The notes: generated by a model from the sequence alone, not told the origin. A stretch of 64,000 nt of DNA from a bacterium (GCA_043810165.1 JBDROJ010000030.1:866-64865), one strand, 5' to 3'. Positions 825 to 59,429 are shown, counted from the first letter of the stretch. Numbers and translations are program-made.

Positions 825-874
825 TATTAGTTGTTAATACCCCACGTTTTTCGATTGAACGCCAAAATCGAAAA

Positions 875-908
875 GACCCTCGGGCTTCGGCCTGGGGGTC
901 TTTGTTTT
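875..908 (+). terminator. Rho-independent terminator-like hairpin after the surface-protein gene
   Basis: aaaagaCCCTCGGGCttcgGCCTGGGGGTCtttgtttt: a GC-rich imperfect stem followed by a T-run. Confidence 0.5.
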
Positions 909-910
909 CT

Positions 911-1083
911 GTCATTGCAAGCGATTCACTGTCATTGCGAGGAAAACTCCTCCGCTCGCAATGACAATTATATTGACTTTTTAGGTAAAAAGCATTATAA
1001 TTTTTTTATGTCGTTGTGAATCTGTTCGTCAGAACAATCTTATCATTGCGAGGAGGAGCGAAGCGACGACGTGGCAATCTCGT
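911..1083. repeat. GTCATTGCGAG-family nested palindromic repeat (copy A, variant). It contains a promoter and an RBS that feed the GIY-YIG gene.
   Basis: gtcattgcaag(911), gtcattgcgagg(931), ctcgcaatgacaa(955) and atcattgcgaggaggagcgaagcgacgacgtggcaatctcgtgg(1042-1083). These share the core with copies at 1418, 22057, 26432, 35212, 40551, 55750, 57276 and 59304. Confidence 0.7.
973..1001 (+). promoter_or_regulatory. Near-consensus sigma70-type promoter inside the repeat element, upstream of the GIY-YIG gene
   Basis: TTGACT(973-978), a 17-nt spacer, then TATAAT(996-1001). An AGGAGG RBS follows at ~1088-1093, 9 nt before the ATG at 1103. Confidence 0.5.
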
Positions 1084-1102
1084 GGATTAAGGAGGGGTGA
1101 TT

Positions 1103-1408
1103 ATGAAAAAATACGAATACCATGTTTATATAATGACCAATAAACGTCATACCGTTTTATATACCGGAGTTACAGGTAATTTGTGTAGAAGGGGATTTGA
1201 GCACAAAAGTGGGGATAGCGATCATGAAAGTTTTACCAAAAGATACAATGTTTGTAAACTAGTTTATTATGAGAAATATGATGACATATACGATGCAATT
1301 GCTAGAGAAAAACAAATAAAAGCAGGTTCTAGAAAGAAAAAGATAGATTTGATACGCGGTATCAATCCACAGTGGGAAGATTTGTATGACGAGCTATTAC
1401 CTTTTTAA
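1103..1408 (+). CDS. Small stand-alone GIY-YIG nuclease (UPF0213/YhbQ-like)
   Basis: Motif YEYHVYIMTNKRHTVLYTGVTGNLCRRGFEHKSG matches the GIY-YIG core (Y..Y..YTG, R, E). About 100 aa. The ATG at 1103 is preferred over the GTG at 1097 because of the AGGAGG spacing. Confidence 0.7.
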   Translation: MKKYEYHVYIMTNKRHTVLYTGVTGNLCRRGFEHKSGDSDHESFTKRYNVCKLVYYEKYDDIYDAIAREKQIKAGSRKKKIDLIRGINPQWEDLYDELLPF

Positions 1409-1417
1409 GCTATATAC

Positions 1418-1570
1418 ATCATTGCGAGCGTAAGCGTGTTTGTCATTGCGAGGAGCGAAGCGACGAAGCAATCTCGTCTTTACAGAACCAACGAGATTGC
1501 GGAGTTTATCCTGAGCATAGCGAAGGACCTCTCGCAATGACAGGAACAGCACGCTTCTCGCAATGACAGG
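1418..1570. repeat. GTCATTGCGAG-family nested palindromic repeat (copy B)
   Basis: catcattgcgagcg, gtcattgcgaggagcgaagcgacgaagcaatctcgt, a central hairpin gcaatctcgtctttacagaaccaacgagattgc, then ctcgcaatgacagg twice. Confidence 0.8.
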
Positions 1571-1587
1571 AACAACAACAAAGTATT

Positions 1588-1669: not shown

Positions 1670-1740
1670 TCGGGGATCGTCTAATGGTAGGACACCAGGT
1701 TCTGGTCCTGGGTATCGGGGTTCAAATCCTCGTCCCCGAG
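1670..1740 (+). tRNA. tRNA-Gln (anticodon CUG)
   Basis: Acceptor TCGGGGA/TCCCCGA, D-stem GTCT/GGAC, anticodon stem CCAGG/CCTGG with loop TTCTGGT, T-arm CGGGG-TTCAAAT-CCTCG, discriminator G. Confidence 0.8.
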
Positions 1741-3315
1741 CAAACAAGGATGAGCAGGCTCTAACAGGCCTGTTTTCCTGTAAGTAGAGCCATTTTTCAG
1801 GAGTTCTGAAGTTGCGTTTAGCTTGGGCATCCACTCAGAAAGAAAAGCAAAAGATTCTGTATATTCAACATTCAATTTTCCCTCAGTATTGATTGTCATT
1901 TCCTTGAAAATTCGTTGTATAAGGATTCTTTTTTCGTCAGTGGTAGCTTTTCTGCTGTTATACTTTTCTCGGGCTGTAAACGCCAAATTATGTATCTCAA
2001 CGCCTATCTTATAGAAGTTTCTAACCCTTTTATTTAACTTTTTTAGCTTGTCAGTGATTTCTTTTTGTTGTTTTGTAAATAGCTTAAATTTCTTATTATA
2101 ATATTCTTCGGATATTTTCTTATCCAATTTATCGTCATACATTGAATCTAGTCTATTTTCTAGTTTCTCAAATTCTTTATTAAGAGATTCTCTCGTCATT
2201 TTAGTATAGTCTTTTTTACCTTTTTTACTTTTTTTTAAAACATTTGTTATCCAATCCAAAACCTCCTTATTTAAAGGTTTTATTTTTTTCATCATTTCAT
2301 TTAATTTTTCCTCAATCTTTTCTTCTTTAATATATCCTTTACGGGAACACTCTTTATAACCACGGCAAGAGCCGTAATGGTGGCCTTTTTGTGTTTGCCA
2401 ACTAATAAGACAACCACACTCCTCACAACGGATTAAGCCTTTAAAAGTATGAAATTTTTTTCTATATTGTCCCGCTTTAAGTGGTCGGTCTAATTGTGAT
2501 TGAACTTTGTTAAATAAAGTTTCACTTACTATCGGTTCTTGTTTTCCTTTGTATTCTTCATTATTCCAAATAATATATCCGCAATAAAAAGGATCACGGA
2601 GTAAACGATGTACGACAGAATTCATTACTCTTTTACCATTAACACTTCTAAAACCGTCTTTATATAATTTTTCGGCTATTCTTTTGACAGTATAATTTCC
2701 TGTACTATAAAGCTTAAAAGCTTCTTTTATATAAGGGGTTACTTTAGTATCTTGTATATGGGTCTTATGTCCTTTTTCGCCGGTGGTAATATAACCAAAC
2801 TTATTTCCACAAGGTATCCAACCAGATTCAATTTTTGCTTTTTGTCCTTTTTTAACTTCCTCGCTTAAATTATTTGTATAGAACCGTGCAATAGCGACTT
2901 TCATATCCCAAACTAAATTTTCATGAGCCCTTGTGTTTCTACTTACAACAAAGTTTTCTTTTACAAAATGAACCTCTCTTTTTTCATCGCCATTTACCCA
3001 ATCACTAATAACAGCACCGTCTTTCAAGTTTCTTGTTAAACGATCTATTTTTTCACAAAGAATAAGATTAATTTTTCTTTTCTTAACATAGCCTAGCATT
3101 TCATTAAAAGTTTTTCTTATCTGTTTACCACTCGCACTTTCAGAAATTTTAAATATTTTAGAAATCACAAGATCATTTCGCATAGCATAACTACGCAAAA
3201 GTTTTTCTTGTGCTTCTAGAGAATACCCTCGGTCTTCCTGTTCTTTGCTTGAAACACGACAGTATAAAATACATCGATTGTCTTTTTCTTTTTCCATATT
3301 ATTTTTTGTTATCAT
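1681..3315 (-). CDS. Large serine recombinase (integrase) with N-terminal resolvase domain, recombinase domain, zinc ribbon and coiled coil. Its 3' end overlaps tRNA-Gln by ~60 nt.
   Basis: N-terminal CILYCRVSSKEQ (catalytic Ser of the resolvase fold) and ...DRLTRN. The zinc-ribbon CEECGC...HYGSC is followed by a Lys/Glu-rich coiled coil. The 544-aa size fits the large-serine-recombinase class. Position next to a tRNA is the classic integration signature. Confidence 0.85.
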   Translation of the reverse strand: MITKNNMEKEKDNRCILYCRVSSKEQEDRGYSLEAQEKLLRSYAMRNDLVISKIFKISESASGKQIRKTFNEMLGYVKKRKINLILCEKIDRLTRNLKDGAVISDWVNGDEKREVHFVKENFVVSRNTRAHENLVWDMKVAIARFYTNNLSEEVKKGQKAKIESGWIPCGNKFGYITTGEKGHKTHIQDTKVTPYIKEAFKLYSTGNYTVKRIAEKLYKDGFRSVNGKRVMNSVVHRLLRDPFYCGYIIWNNEEYKGKQEPIVSETLFNKVQSQLDRPLKAGQYRKKFHTFKGLIRCEECGCLISWQTQKGHHYGSCRGYKECSRKGYIKEEKIEEKLNEMMKKIKPLNKEVLDWITNVLKKSKKGKKDYTKMTRESLNKEFEKLENRLDSMYDDKLDKKISEEYYNKKFKLFTKQQKEITDKLKKLNKRVRNFYKIGVEIHNLAFTAREKYNSRKATTDEKRILIQRIFKEMTINTEGKLNVEYTESFAFLSEWMPKLNATSELLKNGSTYRKTGLLEPAHPCLLGDEDLNPDTQDQNLVSYH

Positions 3316-3466
3316 CTTGCATATTTTTTATACGCAATTCTTTAAGTATGGAGAAATAATCAACTAAGCCATTTGCTATTTCGGAAGCATTTTTAAAAGT
3401 TAATTCTTCCCCGTATTCCTCCTTTACAATTTGTTGAAATTCTTTGATTGATTCTTCGCTAAGCAT
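3299..3466 (-). CDS. Small hypothetical protein (~55 aa), paralog of 3634..3798. Possible regulator or recombination-directionality factor.
   Basis: The track ORF 3299..3520 trimmed to the internal Met MLSEESIKEFQQIVKEEYGEELTFKNASEIANGLVDYF. It aligns with MISEQDILKLQDIIKRNYGVELSFEETSKVANDWIAVF encoded at 3634..3798. Confidence 0.4.
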   Translation of the reverse strand: MLSEESIKEFQQIVKEEYGEELTFKNASEIANGLVDYFSILKELRIKNMQDDNKK

Positions 3467-3633
3467 ATAATTATATTTAAATACAAAAAGGGACGGTCGT
3501 TGCTTACCCAATTCAAACACTCAAAGAGTATTTTTATCGGAACGAACCGCCCCTTTCTGGCGACAAAATAATAAACTCCTTGAGTTAATTATTGAATTGA
3601 GTAAGCATATAAATTATAACACAAAACGGAATT

Positions 3634-3798
3634 TAATCAATTTTTTTCAAATTTCTCTCTGTAATCAATTTCAGCCAATACTTCAAAAACAGCAATCCAA
3701 TCATTTGCCACTTTTGAGGTTTCTTCAAAACTTAATTCAACACCATAGTTTCTTTTTATAATGTCTTGAAGTTTTAGGATGTCTTGTTCGCTTATCAT
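3634..3798 (-). CDS. Small hypothetical protein (~55 aa), not in the ORF track. Its start codon overlaps the Rep stop (ATGA).
   Basis: Manual translation of the minus strand gives MISEQDILKLQDIIKRNYGVELSFEETSKVANDWIAVFEVLAEIDYREKFEKN. It is paralogous to the 3299..3466 product. The Rep TGA and this ATG share bases, which implies translational coupling. Confidence 0.4.
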
Positions 3799-4577
3799 AT
3801 TGGCTTGAATAAGAGCGAACGATTAAGCACGCCGGTTTTAAATATTAGATCATCTAATCTGTATGCTTTATATTCAACTTCGCCGACCCACTCACTCTCA
3901 AAAGTTTTTTCAAAAGACGGTGTAAGTAAAGACAAAAACCTTTCAATAAATTTAGTGGCAAGCCAGCCCAATATTTCAATTGGATCTTTGAGTGTTTGTG
4001 AACGAAAGAATTTCTTTTTTCCAAAAGTTCTTTCGTCAAACATATCTTTACTAAGATATTTACAAACATAAGCCCCGATGTTGTCTACATCTTTTAAAGT
4101 TTTAATGTCTATATTTCCATGTCCCCAAGTTTCGTGTATCACACTAAAGTGAATAAAAGGCATATCACAAAGCAAGTGATAGTGAACTGCACCACGCTTT
4201 TGAAATTCGGGAATGGCTAAATATCTAAAATTAGGATATTTATAAGTCATCCTTTTTATAAACTGATTAAATAGATAATTAGCTTGTTTAAGATCTGTGA
4301 TGTTCTCGGCAAAGGTTAAAGTCATAAATTTGGTTAATTGCGGATTTGAGTTTATCAACCGTCGTATTTCTGTTCGTGTTCGATTGACTGAATATAATTG
4401 TTTTTGCTGTTGTTTTTTTATTCTTTCGAATATATCTAATTGTTTCGGCTCTTCATGAGTTTTTTCTTTTACGCTTTCTTGCGTCCTTTCAAAGTCCCGC
4501 CAGACGTTTTTCTTGTACTTGTAAACTTCAACATACTTGCCCGACACCACAACTCTTGTGTTGTAGGTAAAGGCCAT
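3795..4577 (-). CDS. Rolling-circle replication initiator (HUH endonuclease, Rep_trans/gpII-like)
   Basis: HUH motif GAVHYHLLCDMPF and a downstream catalytic-Tyr motif GAYVCKYLSKD (YxxK). About 260 aa, as expected for phage or plasmid RCR Rep proteins. Confidence 0.7.
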   Translation of the reverse strand: MAFTYNTRVVVSGKYVEVYKYKKNVWRDFERTQESVKEKTHEEPKQLDIFERIKKQQQKQLYSVNRTRTEIRRLINSNPQLTKFMTLTFAENITDLKQANYLFNQFIKRMTYKYPNFRYLAIPEFQKRGAVHYHLLCDMPFIHFSVIHETWGHGNIDIKTLKDVDNIGAYVCKYLSKDMFDERTFGKKKFFRSQTLKDPIEILGWLATKFIERFLSLLTPSFEKTFESEWVGEVEYKAYRLDDLIFKTGVLNRSLLFKPI

Positions 4578-22030: not shown

Positions 22031-22055
22031 AAAACCCACTTGGTGCGGGTTTTTA
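22031..22055 (-). terminator. Terminator-like hairpin downstream of the 1080-aa gene, abutting a repeat copy
   Basis: aaaaaCCCACttggtGCGGGttttt. Confidence 0.45.
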
Positions 22056-22056
22056 C

Positions 22057-22110
22057 GAGATTGCTTCGCTTACGCTCGCAATGACAGATAAGCTCCGATC
22101 GCAATGACAA
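22057..22110. repeat. GTCATTGCGAG-family repeat (half copy C)
   Basis: gagattgcttcgcttacgctcgcaatgacag ... gatcgcaatgacaa. Confidence 0.7.
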
Positions 22111-26431: not shown

Positions 26432-26488
26432 GTTGTCATTGCTTCGTGGCTTCGCCTGCCTAGCGGGCAGGCTCCTCGCAATGATAGG
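26432..26488. repeat. GTCATTGC-family repeat variant (copy D) with GCCTGCCtagcGGGCAGGC hairpin
   Basis: gtcattgcttcgtggcttcgcctgcctagcgggcaggctcctcgcaatgatagg. The same hairpin recurs at 57290-57310. Confidence 0.65.
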
Positions 26489-35210: not shown

Positions 35211-35211
35211 T

Positions 35212-35337
35212 GTCATTGCGAGCGAAGCATCACTGTCATTGCGAGGAGCGGAGCGACGAAGCAATCTCGTTATTACTAGAACCAACGAGATTGCTTCGCT
35301 TACGCTCGCAATGACAGCAGAGACGCTCGCAATGACT
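35212..35337. repeat. GTCATTGCGAG-family nested palindromic repeat (full copy F) in a convergent intergenic region
   Basis: gtcattgcgagcgaagcatcactgtcattgcgaggagcggagcgacGAAGCAATCTCGTTattactagaaccAACGAGATTGCTTCgcttacgctcgcaatgacagcagagacgctcgcaatgac. Confidence 0.85.
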
Positions 35338-40553: not shown

Positions 40554-40587
40554 TTTAATGACAATGAACCCACCCTCGCAATGACGG
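40551..40587. repeat. GTCATTGCGAG-family repeat (half copy G)
   Basis: tgatttaatgacaatgaacccaccctcgcaatgacgg. Confidence 0.6.
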
Positions 40588-55749: not shown

Positions 55750-55866
55750 TGTCATTGCGAGCGTAGCGAAGCAATCTCGTTATTACTAGAACCAACGAGA
55801 TTGCCGTGTCGTCGCTCCGCTCCTCCTCGCAATGACAATGTTATCACACTTCTCGCAATGACAGAT
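55750..55866. repeat. GTCATTGCGAG-family nested palindromic repeat (full copy H)
   Basis: gtcattgcgagcgtagcGAAGCAATCTCGTTattactagaaccAACGAGATTGCcgtgtcgtcgctccgctcctcctcgcaatgacaatgttatcacacttctcgcaatgac. Confidence 0.85.
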
Positions 55867-59222: not shown

Positions 59223-59303
59223 AAGCAAAACAATTAATACGCAACTCTCTTGATGAGAGTTTTTTTATTGTGAATAAATTATTTTTAGTGTATAATATAG
59301 TAT

Positions 59304-59429
59304 GTAATTGCGAGCGCAAGTGTTGCTGTCATTGCGAGCGTAGCCAAGCAATCTCGTCGGTTCTAGTAATAACGAGTTTGCTTCGTCGCTCCGCTCCTCG
59401 CAATGACAGTGAACCGCTCGCAATGACAG
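59304..59429. repeat. GTCATTGCGAG-family nested palindromic repeat (full copy I, central loop inverted)
   Basis: gtaattgcgagcgcaagtgttgctgtcattgcgagcgtagccaAGCAATCTCGTcggttctagtaataACGAGtTTGCTtcgtcgctccgctcctcgcaatgacagtgaaccgctcgcaatgac. Confidence 0.85.

What the first reader, a model, noticed from the sequence alone, without database searches (positions are those of the whole stretch)
905..1575. GIY-YIG nuclease gene flanked by two repeat copies; the left repeat supplies a consensus promoter and RBS
The 102-aa GIY-YIG ORF (1103-1408) is bracketed by repeat copy A on the left and copy B on the right. Copy A contains TTGACT-17-TATAAT at 973-1001 and AGGAGG nine nt before the ATG. Copy B abuts tRNA-Glu. 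The GIY-YIG protein could be the mobilising nuclease of the repeat family, as in a homing-endonuclease plus MITE relationship. Alternatively the repeats could be promoter- or terminator-bearing cassettes that captured the gene. The location next to a tRNA pair and the integration hotspot fits a mobile origin.
Basis: partly seen in the sequence, partly recalled or inferred. Interest (0 to 1): 0.6.

Follow-up and report, generated by a model that had tools for sequence, protein, structure and literature searches.

The report
Ssn nuclease gene with hairpin repeats
This small GIY-YIG gene and the palindromic repeats around it are a new example of the Ssn system described in 2025, in which a single-strand DNA nuclease gene sits among the hairpin repeats the enzyme recognises; the repeat sequence is a variant that the published search motif misses.

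Summary
ORF 1103-1408 is a GIY-YIG protein. The repeat core is far over-represented in the window (25 hits against 3.3 expected).

"Copy A" is a composite of three parts: a degenerate mini-palindrome (910-966), a unique 73-bp spacer that holds the TTGACT-17-TATAAT promoter, and one 42-nt repeat arm (1041-1082). Neither the promoter nor the AGGAGG lies in repeat sequence.

In 80 homologous loci from many phyla, the same oriented arm, (T/C)GTC-ATTGC-GAG…GAA-GCAAT-C, flanks the gene about 40-60 times more often than background. ATTGC and GCAAT covary as a stem.

This matches the published Ssn family (Chenal et al. 2025). Its single-domain GIY-YIG nucleases bind flanking hairpin repeats (SRM/NTS) as single-stranded DNA and cut just upstream. 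The window protein is 40% identical to a Neisseria gonorrhoeae protein (E=4e-23) that I take to be the SsnA orthologue, and it keeps the catalytic residues.

The published SRM search string hits none of these arms, so they are an uncatalogued variant. A mobilising or homing role is unproven. The tRNA adjacency is incidental.

Verdict: new member of a known kind, modest interest.

The parts
872..903 (+). Terminator-like hairpin of the upstream gene (15-824). Not part of the system; it marks the left limit of the intergenic region.
   Evidence: 14-bp stem followed by a T-run
910..966 (.). Degenerate mini-palindrome made of repeat ends only. It has two forward box1 copies (910-921 TGTCATTGCAAG, 930-941 TGTCATTGCGAG) and one reverse box1 (955-966). 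Box2 is absent.
   Evidence: As single-stranded DNA it folds at -13.6 kcal/mol, z=-3.4.
967..1039 (+). Unique AT-rich spacer holding the sigma-70-like promoter (-35 at 973-978, -10 at 996-1001). It is not repeat sequence.
   Evidence: 11/12 match.: no similarity to any other repeat copy in the window.
1041..1082 (+). Gene-proximal repeat arm, a variant of the published Ssn-related motif (SRM). It reads tATC-ATTGC-GAG…GTG-GCAAT-CTCG. The trinucleotide before the stem is ATC rather than the usual GTC.
   Evidence: The consensus comes from 405 arms.
1090..1095 (+). Shine-Dalgarno AGGAGG, 7 nt before the ATG and outside the arm.
1103..1408 (+). Ssn-family GIY-YIG nuclease gene, 101 aa, single domain.
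   Evidence: PF01541. 40% identity to a Neisseria gonorrhoeae protein that I take to be the SsnA orthologue, E=4e-23. AlphaFold2 pLDDT 88.8. Nearest solved folds are UPF0213 and Slx1. Y20, R30, H34, E69 and N88 are invariant and Y9 nearly so.
1418..1430 (+). Truncated outer box1 (ATC-ATTGC-GAGCG) with no box2.
1441..1476 (+). Complete arm, TGTC-ATTGC-GAGGAGCGAAGCGACGAA-GCAAT-CTCG. It is the left half of the gene-less doublet.
1493..1542 (-). Complete arm on the minus strand, the right half of the doublet, with a longer variable insert.
   Evidence: The stretch 1436-1575, which holds the doublet and its right outer box1, folds as a long hairpin at -38.4 kcal/mol, z=-7.7.
1557..1568 (-). Truncated outer box1 on the minus strand.
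22055..22109 (-). Half element: one arm plus an outer box1, directly after a terminator-like hairpin.
26434..26486 (.). Short, divergent palindrome built from repeat ends.
35211..35336 (.). Complete gene-less doublet with outer truncated ends, starting 1 nt after the stop codon of the upstream ORF.
   Evidence: Folds at -48.1 kcal/mol, z=-10.5.
40575..40587 (-). Solitary box1 fragment.
55750..55863 (.). Complete gene-less doublet in an intergenic region.
59303..59428 (.). Complete gene-less doublet in an intergenic region. Its central loop is inverted relative to the copy at 35211.

Best explanation
The locus is an Ssn-type system. It consists of a 101-aa single-domain GIY-YIG nuclease gene (1103-1408) embedded among its cognate hairpin repeats, the Ssn-related motifs (SRM).

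Each repeat arm reads, 5' to 3' toward the inside of the element, (T/C)GTC – ATTGC – GAG – variable GC-rich segment – GAA – GCAAT – C. ATTGC and GCAAT form the base of a stem. Arms mostly occur as inverted doublets scattered in intergenic DNA.

By homology with the characterised SsnA enzymes, the protein should bind the arm only when it is single-stranded and folded. It should read both sequence and structure, with the GTC 5' of the stem and the C 3' of it as key contacts. It should cut one strand a few nucleotides 5' of the motif, using Mg2+.

Shown here:
- the homology to a Neisseria gonorrhoeae protein that I take to be the SsnA orthologue, and the conserved catalytic residues;
- the gene-repeat association across phyla;
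- the stem covariation and the sharp outer boundary of the arm.

Inferred:
- the single-strand cutting activity and the cut position;
- the biological role. It could be restriction of incoming or replicating single-stranded DNA that carries the motif, as in Neisseria transformation, and/or maintenance and spread of the repeat population, as with REP sequences and their associated RAYT transposases.

In this window, the gene has its own sigma-70-like promoter in unique DNA upstream of the arm. The transcript would therefore carry the left arm in its 5' UTR and the doublet in its 3' end.
For: Protein:
- Pfam GIY-YIG.
- 40% identity, E=4e-23, to a 94-aa ORF of N. gonorrhoeae. I took this ORF as the SsnA orthologue because it is flanked by 7-8 canonical NTS repeats.
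- Y9, Y20 and E69 align with the published catalytic Y6, Y17 and E64.
- The fold is nearest to UPF0213 and Slx1.

Repeats:
- A strict arm lies within 150 nt upstream in 42 of 80 loci. Its mirror lies within 250 nt downstream in 62 of 80. Both are present in 33 of 80. Background is 0.08-0.09 per kb.
- Degenerate variants explain most of the loci that miss the strict motif.
- The gene-flanking architectures (arm-gene-mirror arm, or doublet-gene-doublet) are the same as those around the Neisseria and alpha-proteobacterial homologues.
- Those alpha-proteobacterial homologues carry canonical published SRMs.
- Stem covariation: 28 cells are changed on both sides against 4.1±1.9 in shuffles, and 0 of 500 shuffles reach 28. 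All 5 pairs show compensatory changes. Further variants are ATTCT/AGAAT and ATCCC/GGGAT.
- The outer boundary is sharp. G and T of the GTC are 97% conserved and there is no information beyond position -4. [quoted passage not shown]

Published biochemistry and architecture: PMC11893778.
Against: - No arm in the window or in the 80 loci fits the published SRM search string. The stem is only 5 bp and the loop region is much longer than in NTS.
- Single arms of this window do not fold better than shuffled sequence under nearest-neighbour DNA parameters (z>0). Only the doublets do.
- Covariation of the two pentamers could also arise from a protein that reads the same duplex motif in two orientations.
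- The excess of G·T wobble pairs over A·C mismatches, which would favour a strand-specific structure, is only suggestive (30 against 16, p=0.054).
- Membership of CDD family cd10448 was not tested directly.
- No biochemistry exists for this clade.
Confidence: 0.82

Rival explanations
1. Active selfish element. The unit arm-gene-arm is an autonomous mobile element. The GIY-YIG enzyme is its mobilising or homing nuclease, and the gene-less doublets are its MITE-like non-autonomous derivatives that it copies around the genome.
For: - The architecture is IS-like, with inverted arms bracketing the gene.
- The element end is sharp.
- Gene-less copies are dispersed in intergenic DNA.
- Near-identical strains differ by one 43-nt arm unit.
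- Arms occur in at least 120 IMG/VR contigs without the gene, once in frame inside a portal-like ORF.
- Protein and motif are conserved across phyla.
- The authors of PMC11893778 raise an IS-like origin.
Against: - The gene is single-copy in the window.
- Identical proteins occur in one genomic context only.
- Both flanks are syntenic across Nostocales genera.
- No target-site duplication is detectable.
- GIY-YIG enzymes hydrolyse DNA and form no covalent intermediate, so they cannot do strand transfer on their own (established knowledge).
- The published activity is a single-strand nick, and no mobilisation has been shown.
Confidence: 0.12
2. Regulatory cassettes. The repeats are host promoter- or terminator-bearing elements that happened to capture or flank the gene, with no enzyme-substrate relation.
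For: - A near-consensus promoter lies between repeat pieces.
- Doublets are strong hairpins placed after genes.
Against: - The promoter segment is not repeat sequence.
- The doublets lack a T-run.
- The same oriented motif flanks homologues in many phyla at fixed short distances.
- The family has a demonstrated enzyme-motif relation (PMC11893778).
Confidence: 0.03
3. Structure-specific housekeeping nuclease. The protein is a general Slx1- or YhbQ-like repair nuclease that resolves hairpins or cruciforms of any sequence. The repeats accumulate near it for unrelated reasons.
For: - The fold is closest to UPF0213 and Slx1.
- The doublets can form cruciforms.
Against: - The motif sequence, not just its palindromic character, is conserved and covaries.
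- Published SsnA loses activity when the hairpin is kept but its sequence is changed.
- Gene-to-arm spacing is conserved.
Confidence: 0.03

Closest known systems
Ssn nucleases with SRM/NTS repeats (SsnA of Neisseria meningitidis; Chenal et al., Nat Commun 2025, PMC11893778)
   Same: - A single-domain GIY-YIG protein of about 95-100 aa, 40% identical to a Neisseria gonorrhoeae protein that I take to be the SsnA orthologue, with the same catalytic Tyr, Tyr and Glu.
- The gene is flanked on both sides by oriented hairpin repeats.
- The repeat has GTC 5' of the stem and C 3' of it.
- The repeats are dispersed, mostly intergenic, and often form inverted pairs.
   Different: - The stem is ATTGC/GCAAT (5 bp) rather than ATTCCCGCG/CGCGGGAAT.
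- The stem is followed by GAG…GAA and a long variable insert.
- The published SRM search string does not match.
- The host is a 35% GC uncultured bacterium, and the clade is spread over Cyanobacteria, Chloroflexota, Bacteroidota, Patescibacteria and others, rather than mainly Pseudomonadota.
- Activity and role are untested.
REPIN-RAYT systems: REP doublets with their REP-associated tyrosine transposase (TnpA-REP)
   Same: - A single-copy nuclease gene that is largely vertically inherited and flanked by the palindromic repeats it recognises.
- Dispersed inverted doublets.
- No target-site duplication.
- Recognition of single-stranded DNA hairpins.
   Different: - The enzyme is a GIY-YIG hydrolase, not an HUH/Y1 transposase, so it has no covalent intermediate or strand-transfer chemistry.
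- The motif is different.
IS200/IS605 elements (TnpA with subterminal hairpins)
   Same: - Imperfect hairpins at the ends are read as single-stranded DNA.
- Cleavage occurs a few nucleotides outside the hairpin.
- No target-site duplication.
   Different: - The enzyme class is different.
- There is no evidence here for excision or insertion of the gene-carrying unit.
GIY-YIG homing endonucleases (for example I-TevI)
   Same: The GIY-YIG catalytic core.
   Different: - There is no DNA-binding domain, intron or intein context.
- The target is a repeated hairpin rather than an empty allele.
- The gene is single-copy and syntenic in relatives.
Slx1 and UPF0213 (YhbQ, BH0048, EF2693) GIY-YIG proteins
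   Same: The nearest solved folds, and a small URI-type domain.
   Different: Those proteins are structure-selective or uncharacterised, and no cognate flanking repeat is known for them.

Membership tests
Ssn nuclease / SRM system (PMC11893778) | Single-domain GIY-YIG protein of about 94-100 aa with no extra DNA-binding domain | tested here: met
   The protein is 101 aa. The Pfam GIY-YIG domain covers residues 6-80 and nothing else matches. The AlphaFold2 model is one compact domain.
Ssn nuclease / SRM system (PMC11893778) | Homology to SsnA (the paper's criterion is E<1e-10) | tested here: met
   BLASTP against the N. gonorrhoeae ORF that I take to be the SsnA orthologue gives 40% identity, E=4e-23. 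tblastn in the 7.3-Gb plasmid collection gives E=1e-12 to 9e-14. The orthologue was recognised by its flanking NTS repeats and its 94-aa length.
Ssn nuclease / SRM system (PMC11893778) | Catalytic Tyr6, Tyr17 and Glu64 of SsnA conserved | tested here: met
   Y9, Y20 and E69 align with them. Y20 and E69 are invariant and Y9 nearly invariant in 30 homologues.
Ssn nuclease / SRM system (PMC11893778) | [quoted passage not shown] | not testable with these tools
   CDD is not available here, and NCBIfam gave no hit.
Ssn nuclease / SRM system (PMC11893778) | Gene flanked on both sides by oriented hairpin-forming repeats that also occur dispersed in the genome | tested here: met
   Window: an arm at 1041-1082, a doublet at 1441-1542, and three complete doublets plus three fragments elsewhere. 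In the 80 loci, arms lie upstream in 42, downstream in 62, and on both sides in 33. Stem covariation is supported.
Ssn nuclease / SRM system (PMC11893778) | Repeat matches the published SRM search string HGTCWYN(0-2)YYVSBRHN(0-5)WNVSBRGN(0-2)RNCYNB | tested here: not met
   There are 0 hits in the window and 0 of 80 loci have a hit near the gene. The same pattern does find the repeats around the Neisseria, Rhizobium, Azospirillum and Sphingobium homologues. The string is a search heuristic that caught 71% of homologues in the paper. The core layout, GTC-stem…stem'-C, is present.
Ssn nuclease / SRM system (PMC11893778) | Binds and cuts the motif only as single-stranded DNA, in one orientation, a few nucleotides upstream | not testable with these tools
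   This needs purified protein. The only indirect support is the 97% conserved GTC, the sharp boundary, and the suggestive G·T over A·C excess.
REPIN-RAYT | Nuclease is an HUH/Y1 (IS200-like) transposase | tested here: not met
   The protein is GIY-YIG.
REPIN-RAYT | Single-copy, vertically inherited gene flanked by its repeats, with dispersed inverted doublets | tested here: met
   One copy in the window. One context per identical protein. Synteny across Nostocales. Dispersed doublets.
GIY-YIG homing endonuclease with MITE-like derivatives | Multi-copy or presence/absence-polymorphic gene; an extra DNA-binding domain; a target that is the uninterrupted allele | tested here: not met
   No extra domain. 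The gene is single-copy and syntenic. Only an arm, not the gene, was seen to be polymorphic.
Classical IS/MITE (DDE-type) | Target-site duplication flanking the terminal inverted repeats | tested here: not met
   For 87 unique simple doublets, direct repeats of 2-8 nt at the ends are no more frequent than in shuffled flank pairs.

The most novel reading that the evidence does not exclude
The ATTGC-type arms and this Ssn clade could form a self-propagating repeat population of the REPIN-RAYT kind, run by a hydrolytic GIY-YIG nickase instead of a tyrosine transposase. Nicking of folded single-stranded arms at replication forks or on incoming DNA, followed by host repair or template switching, would copy arms next to or into existing arms. 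That would explain the nested, truncated outer ends, the strain-level gain of one arm, and the spread into phage genomes and even into ORFs. It would be a repeat-dispersal mechanism without transposase chemistry, spread over ten or more phyla.
Probability: 0.2. Interest if true: 0.6.

Novelty: new member of a known kind. Interest (0 to 1): 0.3.

Why it matters

What this window adds is modest but concrete:
- It defines a distinct recognition-motif class, (T/C)GTC-ATTGC…GCAAT-C with a long variable insert. The published SRM search string misses it, yet it flanks Ssn homologues in Cyanobacteria, Chloroflexota, Bacteroidota, Patescibacteria, Planctomycetota and others.
- Each new enzyme-motif pair is a candidate site-specific single-stranded DNA cutter, which is the biotechnological point of that family.
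- The comparative data bear on the question the paper leaves open, namely how these repeats spread and what the enzyme does outside Neisseria. Those data are the fixed syntenic gene, the absence of target duplications, the nested truncated ends, the strain-level arm gain, and the arms in phage contigs that lack the gene.

Tried and rejected
- Rfam, at gathering threshold on the whole window and at E-value threshold on 800-1600, found only the two tRNAs and chance hits.
- NCBIfam gave no model hit.
- tRNA association: none of 60 homologous loci has an adjacent tRNA, so this was rejected as a general feature.
- Target-site duplications: none above the shuffled control.
- Single-arm hairpin stability in the window is not better than shuffles. 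The stem is therefore supported by covariation, not by energy.
- Multi-copy gene: identical proteins P0098 and P0033 each occur in a single context, and a second copy appears in only one of the 80 loci (L029; the extra match in L045 is only 33% identical).
- I tested whether the arm-bearing IMG/VR contigs of 4-6 kb are single-stranded DNA phages (Microviridae). Rejected: the largest ORFs I inspected resemble portal and terminase proteins of tailed phages (reading by eye, no family search run).
- I looked for an att repeat for the neighbouring serine-recombinase element. No long direct repeat of the tRNA-Gln 3' end exists in the window.
- Six literature searches on GIY-YIG with MITE, REP, RAYT, COG2827, YhbQ or the motif itself found nothing. 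The Ssn paper surfaced only on searches. A follow-up search found no later paper.
- The published SRM and NTS patterns give no hit on these arms.

Full report
**1. What is in the sequence**

The ORF 1103-1408 (+) encodes 101 aa. It matches Pfam GIY-YIG (PF01541, E=5e-13) over residues 6-80 and matches nothing else. An identical protein is on record from a 65.9-kb MAG contig labelled only "bacterium". The window has 35% GC.

A sigma-70-like TTGACT-17-TATAAT sits at 973-1001, an 11/12 match. AGGAGG is at 1090-1095, 7 nt before the ATG. tRNA-Glu (1588-1660) and tRNA-Gln (1670-1741) follow.

The repeat core TCATTGCGAG, allowing one mismatch, occurs 25 times in the window against 3.3 expected. None of 100 shuffles reaches 25.

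**2. Anatomy of the repeat, and corrections to the finding**

The repeat unit is an "arm" of about 35-50 nt. Read inward it is (T/C)GTC-ATTGC-GAG, then a variable GC-rich stretch, then GAA-GCAAT-CTC.

Arms usually occur as inverted doublets. Complete gene-less doublets lie at 1441-1542, 35211-35336, 55750-55863 and 59303-59428. Fragments lie at 22055-22109, 26434-26486 and 40575-40587. The ones I checked for context lie outside long ORFs.

Doublets fold as long hairpins far better than shuffled sequence (z=-7.7 and -10.5). Single arms of this window do not (z>0).

- a degenerate mini-palindrome of arm ends (910-966);
- a unique 73-bp AT-rich segment (967-1039) that contains the promoter and matches no other repeat copy;
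- one arm (1041-1082).

The Shine-Dalgarno sequence lies beyond the end of the arm. The repeat therefore supplies neither the promoter nor the RBS. "Copy B" is a doublet with truncated outer ends, and it stops 19 nt short of tRNA-Glu.

**3. The gene-repeat association is general**

The protein has thousands of homologues. The best 120 are 59-71% identical and come from many phyla.

I fetched 80 loci from GTDB species genomes. They include Cyanobacteria, Chloroflexota, Bacteroidota, Patescibacteria, Gamma- and Alphaproteobacteria, Planctomycetota, WOR-3, Nitrospirota, Atribacterota and Spirochaetota. The counts are:

| Strict arm motif | Loci (of 80) |
|---|---|
| within 150 nt upstream of the gene | 42 |
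| mirror image within 250 nt downstream | 62 |
| both | 33 |

The background rate more than 600 nt from the gene is 0.08-0.09 per kb. Most loci that miss the strict motif carry degenerate variants such as CGTTGC, CACTGC/GCAGTC, CATTAC/GTAATC and CTTTGC.

Two architectures recur:
- arm-gene-mirror arm, so that the gene sits in the loop of a doublet;
- doublet-gene-doublet, or arm-gene-doublet. The window is of the arm-gene-doublet kind.

In 405 unique arms the outer boundary is sharp. G and T of the GTC are 97% conserved, and there is no information beyond position -4.

The pentamers ATTGC and GCAAT covary:
- 28 cells are changed on both sides against 4.1±1.9 in shuffles; 0 of 500 shuffles reach 28.
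- All five pairs show compensatory changes.
- Controls in which the 3' partner is slid by 1 to 3 columns give much lower scores.

Planktothrix (ATTCT/AGAAT) and Spirosoma (ATCCC/GGGAT) add further compensated variants.

**4. What it is: a member of the Ssn family**

Six literature searches found nothing. Two later ones surfaced Chenal et al. 2025 (PMC11893778). That paper reports the following:
- Single-domain GIY-YIG proteins of CDD family cd10448 are site-specific single-stranded DNA nucleases, named Ssn.
- Their genes are flanked by hairpin repeats. In Neisseria the repeat is the NTS, CGTCATTCCCGCGMAVGCGGGAATCYRG. The general class is the SRM.
- SsnA binds the hairpin only as single-stranded DNA and in one orientation, and cuts a few nucleotides upstream.
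- The three nucleotides 5' of the palindrome control cutting. The C 3' of the palindrome controls binding.
- In N. meningitidis the system lowers transformation by DNA that carries NTS repeats.
- The authors note the IS-like arrangement NTS-ssnA-NTS and the parallel with REP sequences, RAYT transposases and IS200/IS605.

The link to the window is direct:
- A tblastn search hit two N. gonorrhoeae chromosomes that are filed as plasmids in PLSDB.
- That locus encodes a 94-aa protein flanked by 7-8 canonical NTS repeats, which I take to be the SsnA orthologue.
- It is 40% identical to the window protein (E=4e-23). Y9, Y20 and E69 align with the published catalytic Y6, Y17 and E64.
- Alpha-proteobacterial plasmid homologues, 38-46% identical, are flanked by canonical SRMs in the same two architectures.
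- The AlphaFold2 model (pLDDT 88.8) is closest to UPF0213 proteins and Slx1 (sequence level).

The window arms share the SRM layout of GTC, stem, loop, stem', C. They differ in having a 5-bp stem followed by GAG…GAA and a long variable insert. The published SRM search string matches none of them (0 hits in the window, 0 of 80 loci), although it does find the repeats of the proteobacterial homologues. The arms are therefore an SRM variant that is not captured by the published string.

**5. How it most likely works**

Shown: the homology, the conserved active site, the conserved and covarying oriented motif, and the gene-motif linkage.

Inferred from the family: the protein binds the folded single-stranded arm and nicks a few nucleotides 5' of (T/C)GTC.

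The biological role here is unknown. Candidates are restriction of motif-bearing single-stranded DNA, and upkeep or spread of the repeat population.

The window's promoter would give a transcript that carries the left arm in its 5' UTR. This is a locus-specific feature. In the closest relatives the left arm directly follows the stop codon of pilD.

**6. Is the nuclease the mobiliser?**

This is not shown.

Against an actively jumping gene unit:
- There is one copy in the window.
- Identical proteins seen on many contigs always sit in one context.
- Both flanks are syntenic across Calothrix and Nostoc.
- There are no target-site duplications.
- GIY-YIG chemistry lacks strand transfer (established knowledge).

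For dynamic arms:
- Strains that are otherwise identical over about 850 nt differ by one 43-nt arm unit next to the gene.
- Truncated outer ends suggest nested events.
- The arm pattern occurs in at least 120 IMG/VR contigs. There are 178 arms in 80 loci, and none of those loci has the gene.
- One arm doublet sits in frame inside a portal-like ORF.

None of 60 loci has a tRNA next to the gene. The tRNA and "integration hotspot" context of the window is therefore incidental. It belongs to a separate element carrying a serine recombinase and a Rep protein.

**7. Verdict**

The locus is a new member of a known kind, with an uncatalogued motif variant. Interest is modest.

Noticed in passing
window 1681-4577 (- strand): A large serine recombinase (Resolvase + Recombinase + Zn-ribbon domains) whose ORF end overlaps the 3' end of tRNA-Gln, followed by a rolling-circle Rep protein (PF23343). 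This looks like a small integrated element at tRNA-Gln, unrelated to the GIY-YIG/repeat system. No long att direct repeat was found in the window.
   Followed up: partly
window 1042-1044 and 1418-1420: The two box1 copies nearest the nuclease gene read ATC-ATTGC rather than GTC-ATTGC, which is 97% conserved. In SsnA the three bases before the palindrome govern cutting, so the gene-proximal sites may be bound but not cut.
   Followed up: no
window 912/932, 1419/1443, 35213/35236, 59305/59329; right sides 1531/1557, 22075/22098, 35305/35326, 55826/55852, 59397/59417; L223: Most arms of the complete doublets carry an extra truncated outer end (box1 only) 20-26 nt outside them; the left end of the 55750 doublet has none. 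A Planktothrix plasmid locus has three such truncated units in tandem on each side. This is unexplained. It may reflect nested insertion or slippage at arm ends.
   Followed up: partly
L091:2855-2925 compared with L092-L094: Metagenomic strains that are identical over about 850 nt differ by a 43-nt insertion, which is one extra arm plus 11 nt just downstream of the nuclease gene. They also differ by two units of a 17-nt tandem repeat.
   Followed up: partly
L102-L181 (IMG/VR contigs); L121:4709-4741: The arm pattern occurs in at least 120 viral contigs, and none of the 80 fetched carries the nuclease gene. In L121 an arm doublet encodes a 19-aa in-frame insertion (RNDSPFVSLRGAEHRSNLV) in a portal-like protein, relative to its 66%-identical homologue in L102.
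   Followed up: partly
L223 (Planktothrix plasmid NZ_LR882964.1), L081-L090: Some homologues sit in defence-type neighbourhoods. One lies between an MmeI-type restriction-modification enzyme and DISARM drmA. Another lies between an N6/N4 methyltransferase and a ResIII helicase.
   Followed up: no
PLSDB records NZ_CP119140.1 and NZ_CP119142.1: Two 2.17-Mb Neisseria gonorrhoeae chromosomes are filed as plasmids in the plasmid collection. This was what made the SsnA orthologue reachable.
   Followed up: no
P0003, P0033: Database gene calls for several homologues start too early and translate the upstream arm into spurious N-terminal extensions (…VIARSRSDAAIP…, …CHCEASAAGRSNP…). This is a recurrent annotation artefact caused by these repeats.
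   Followed up: no
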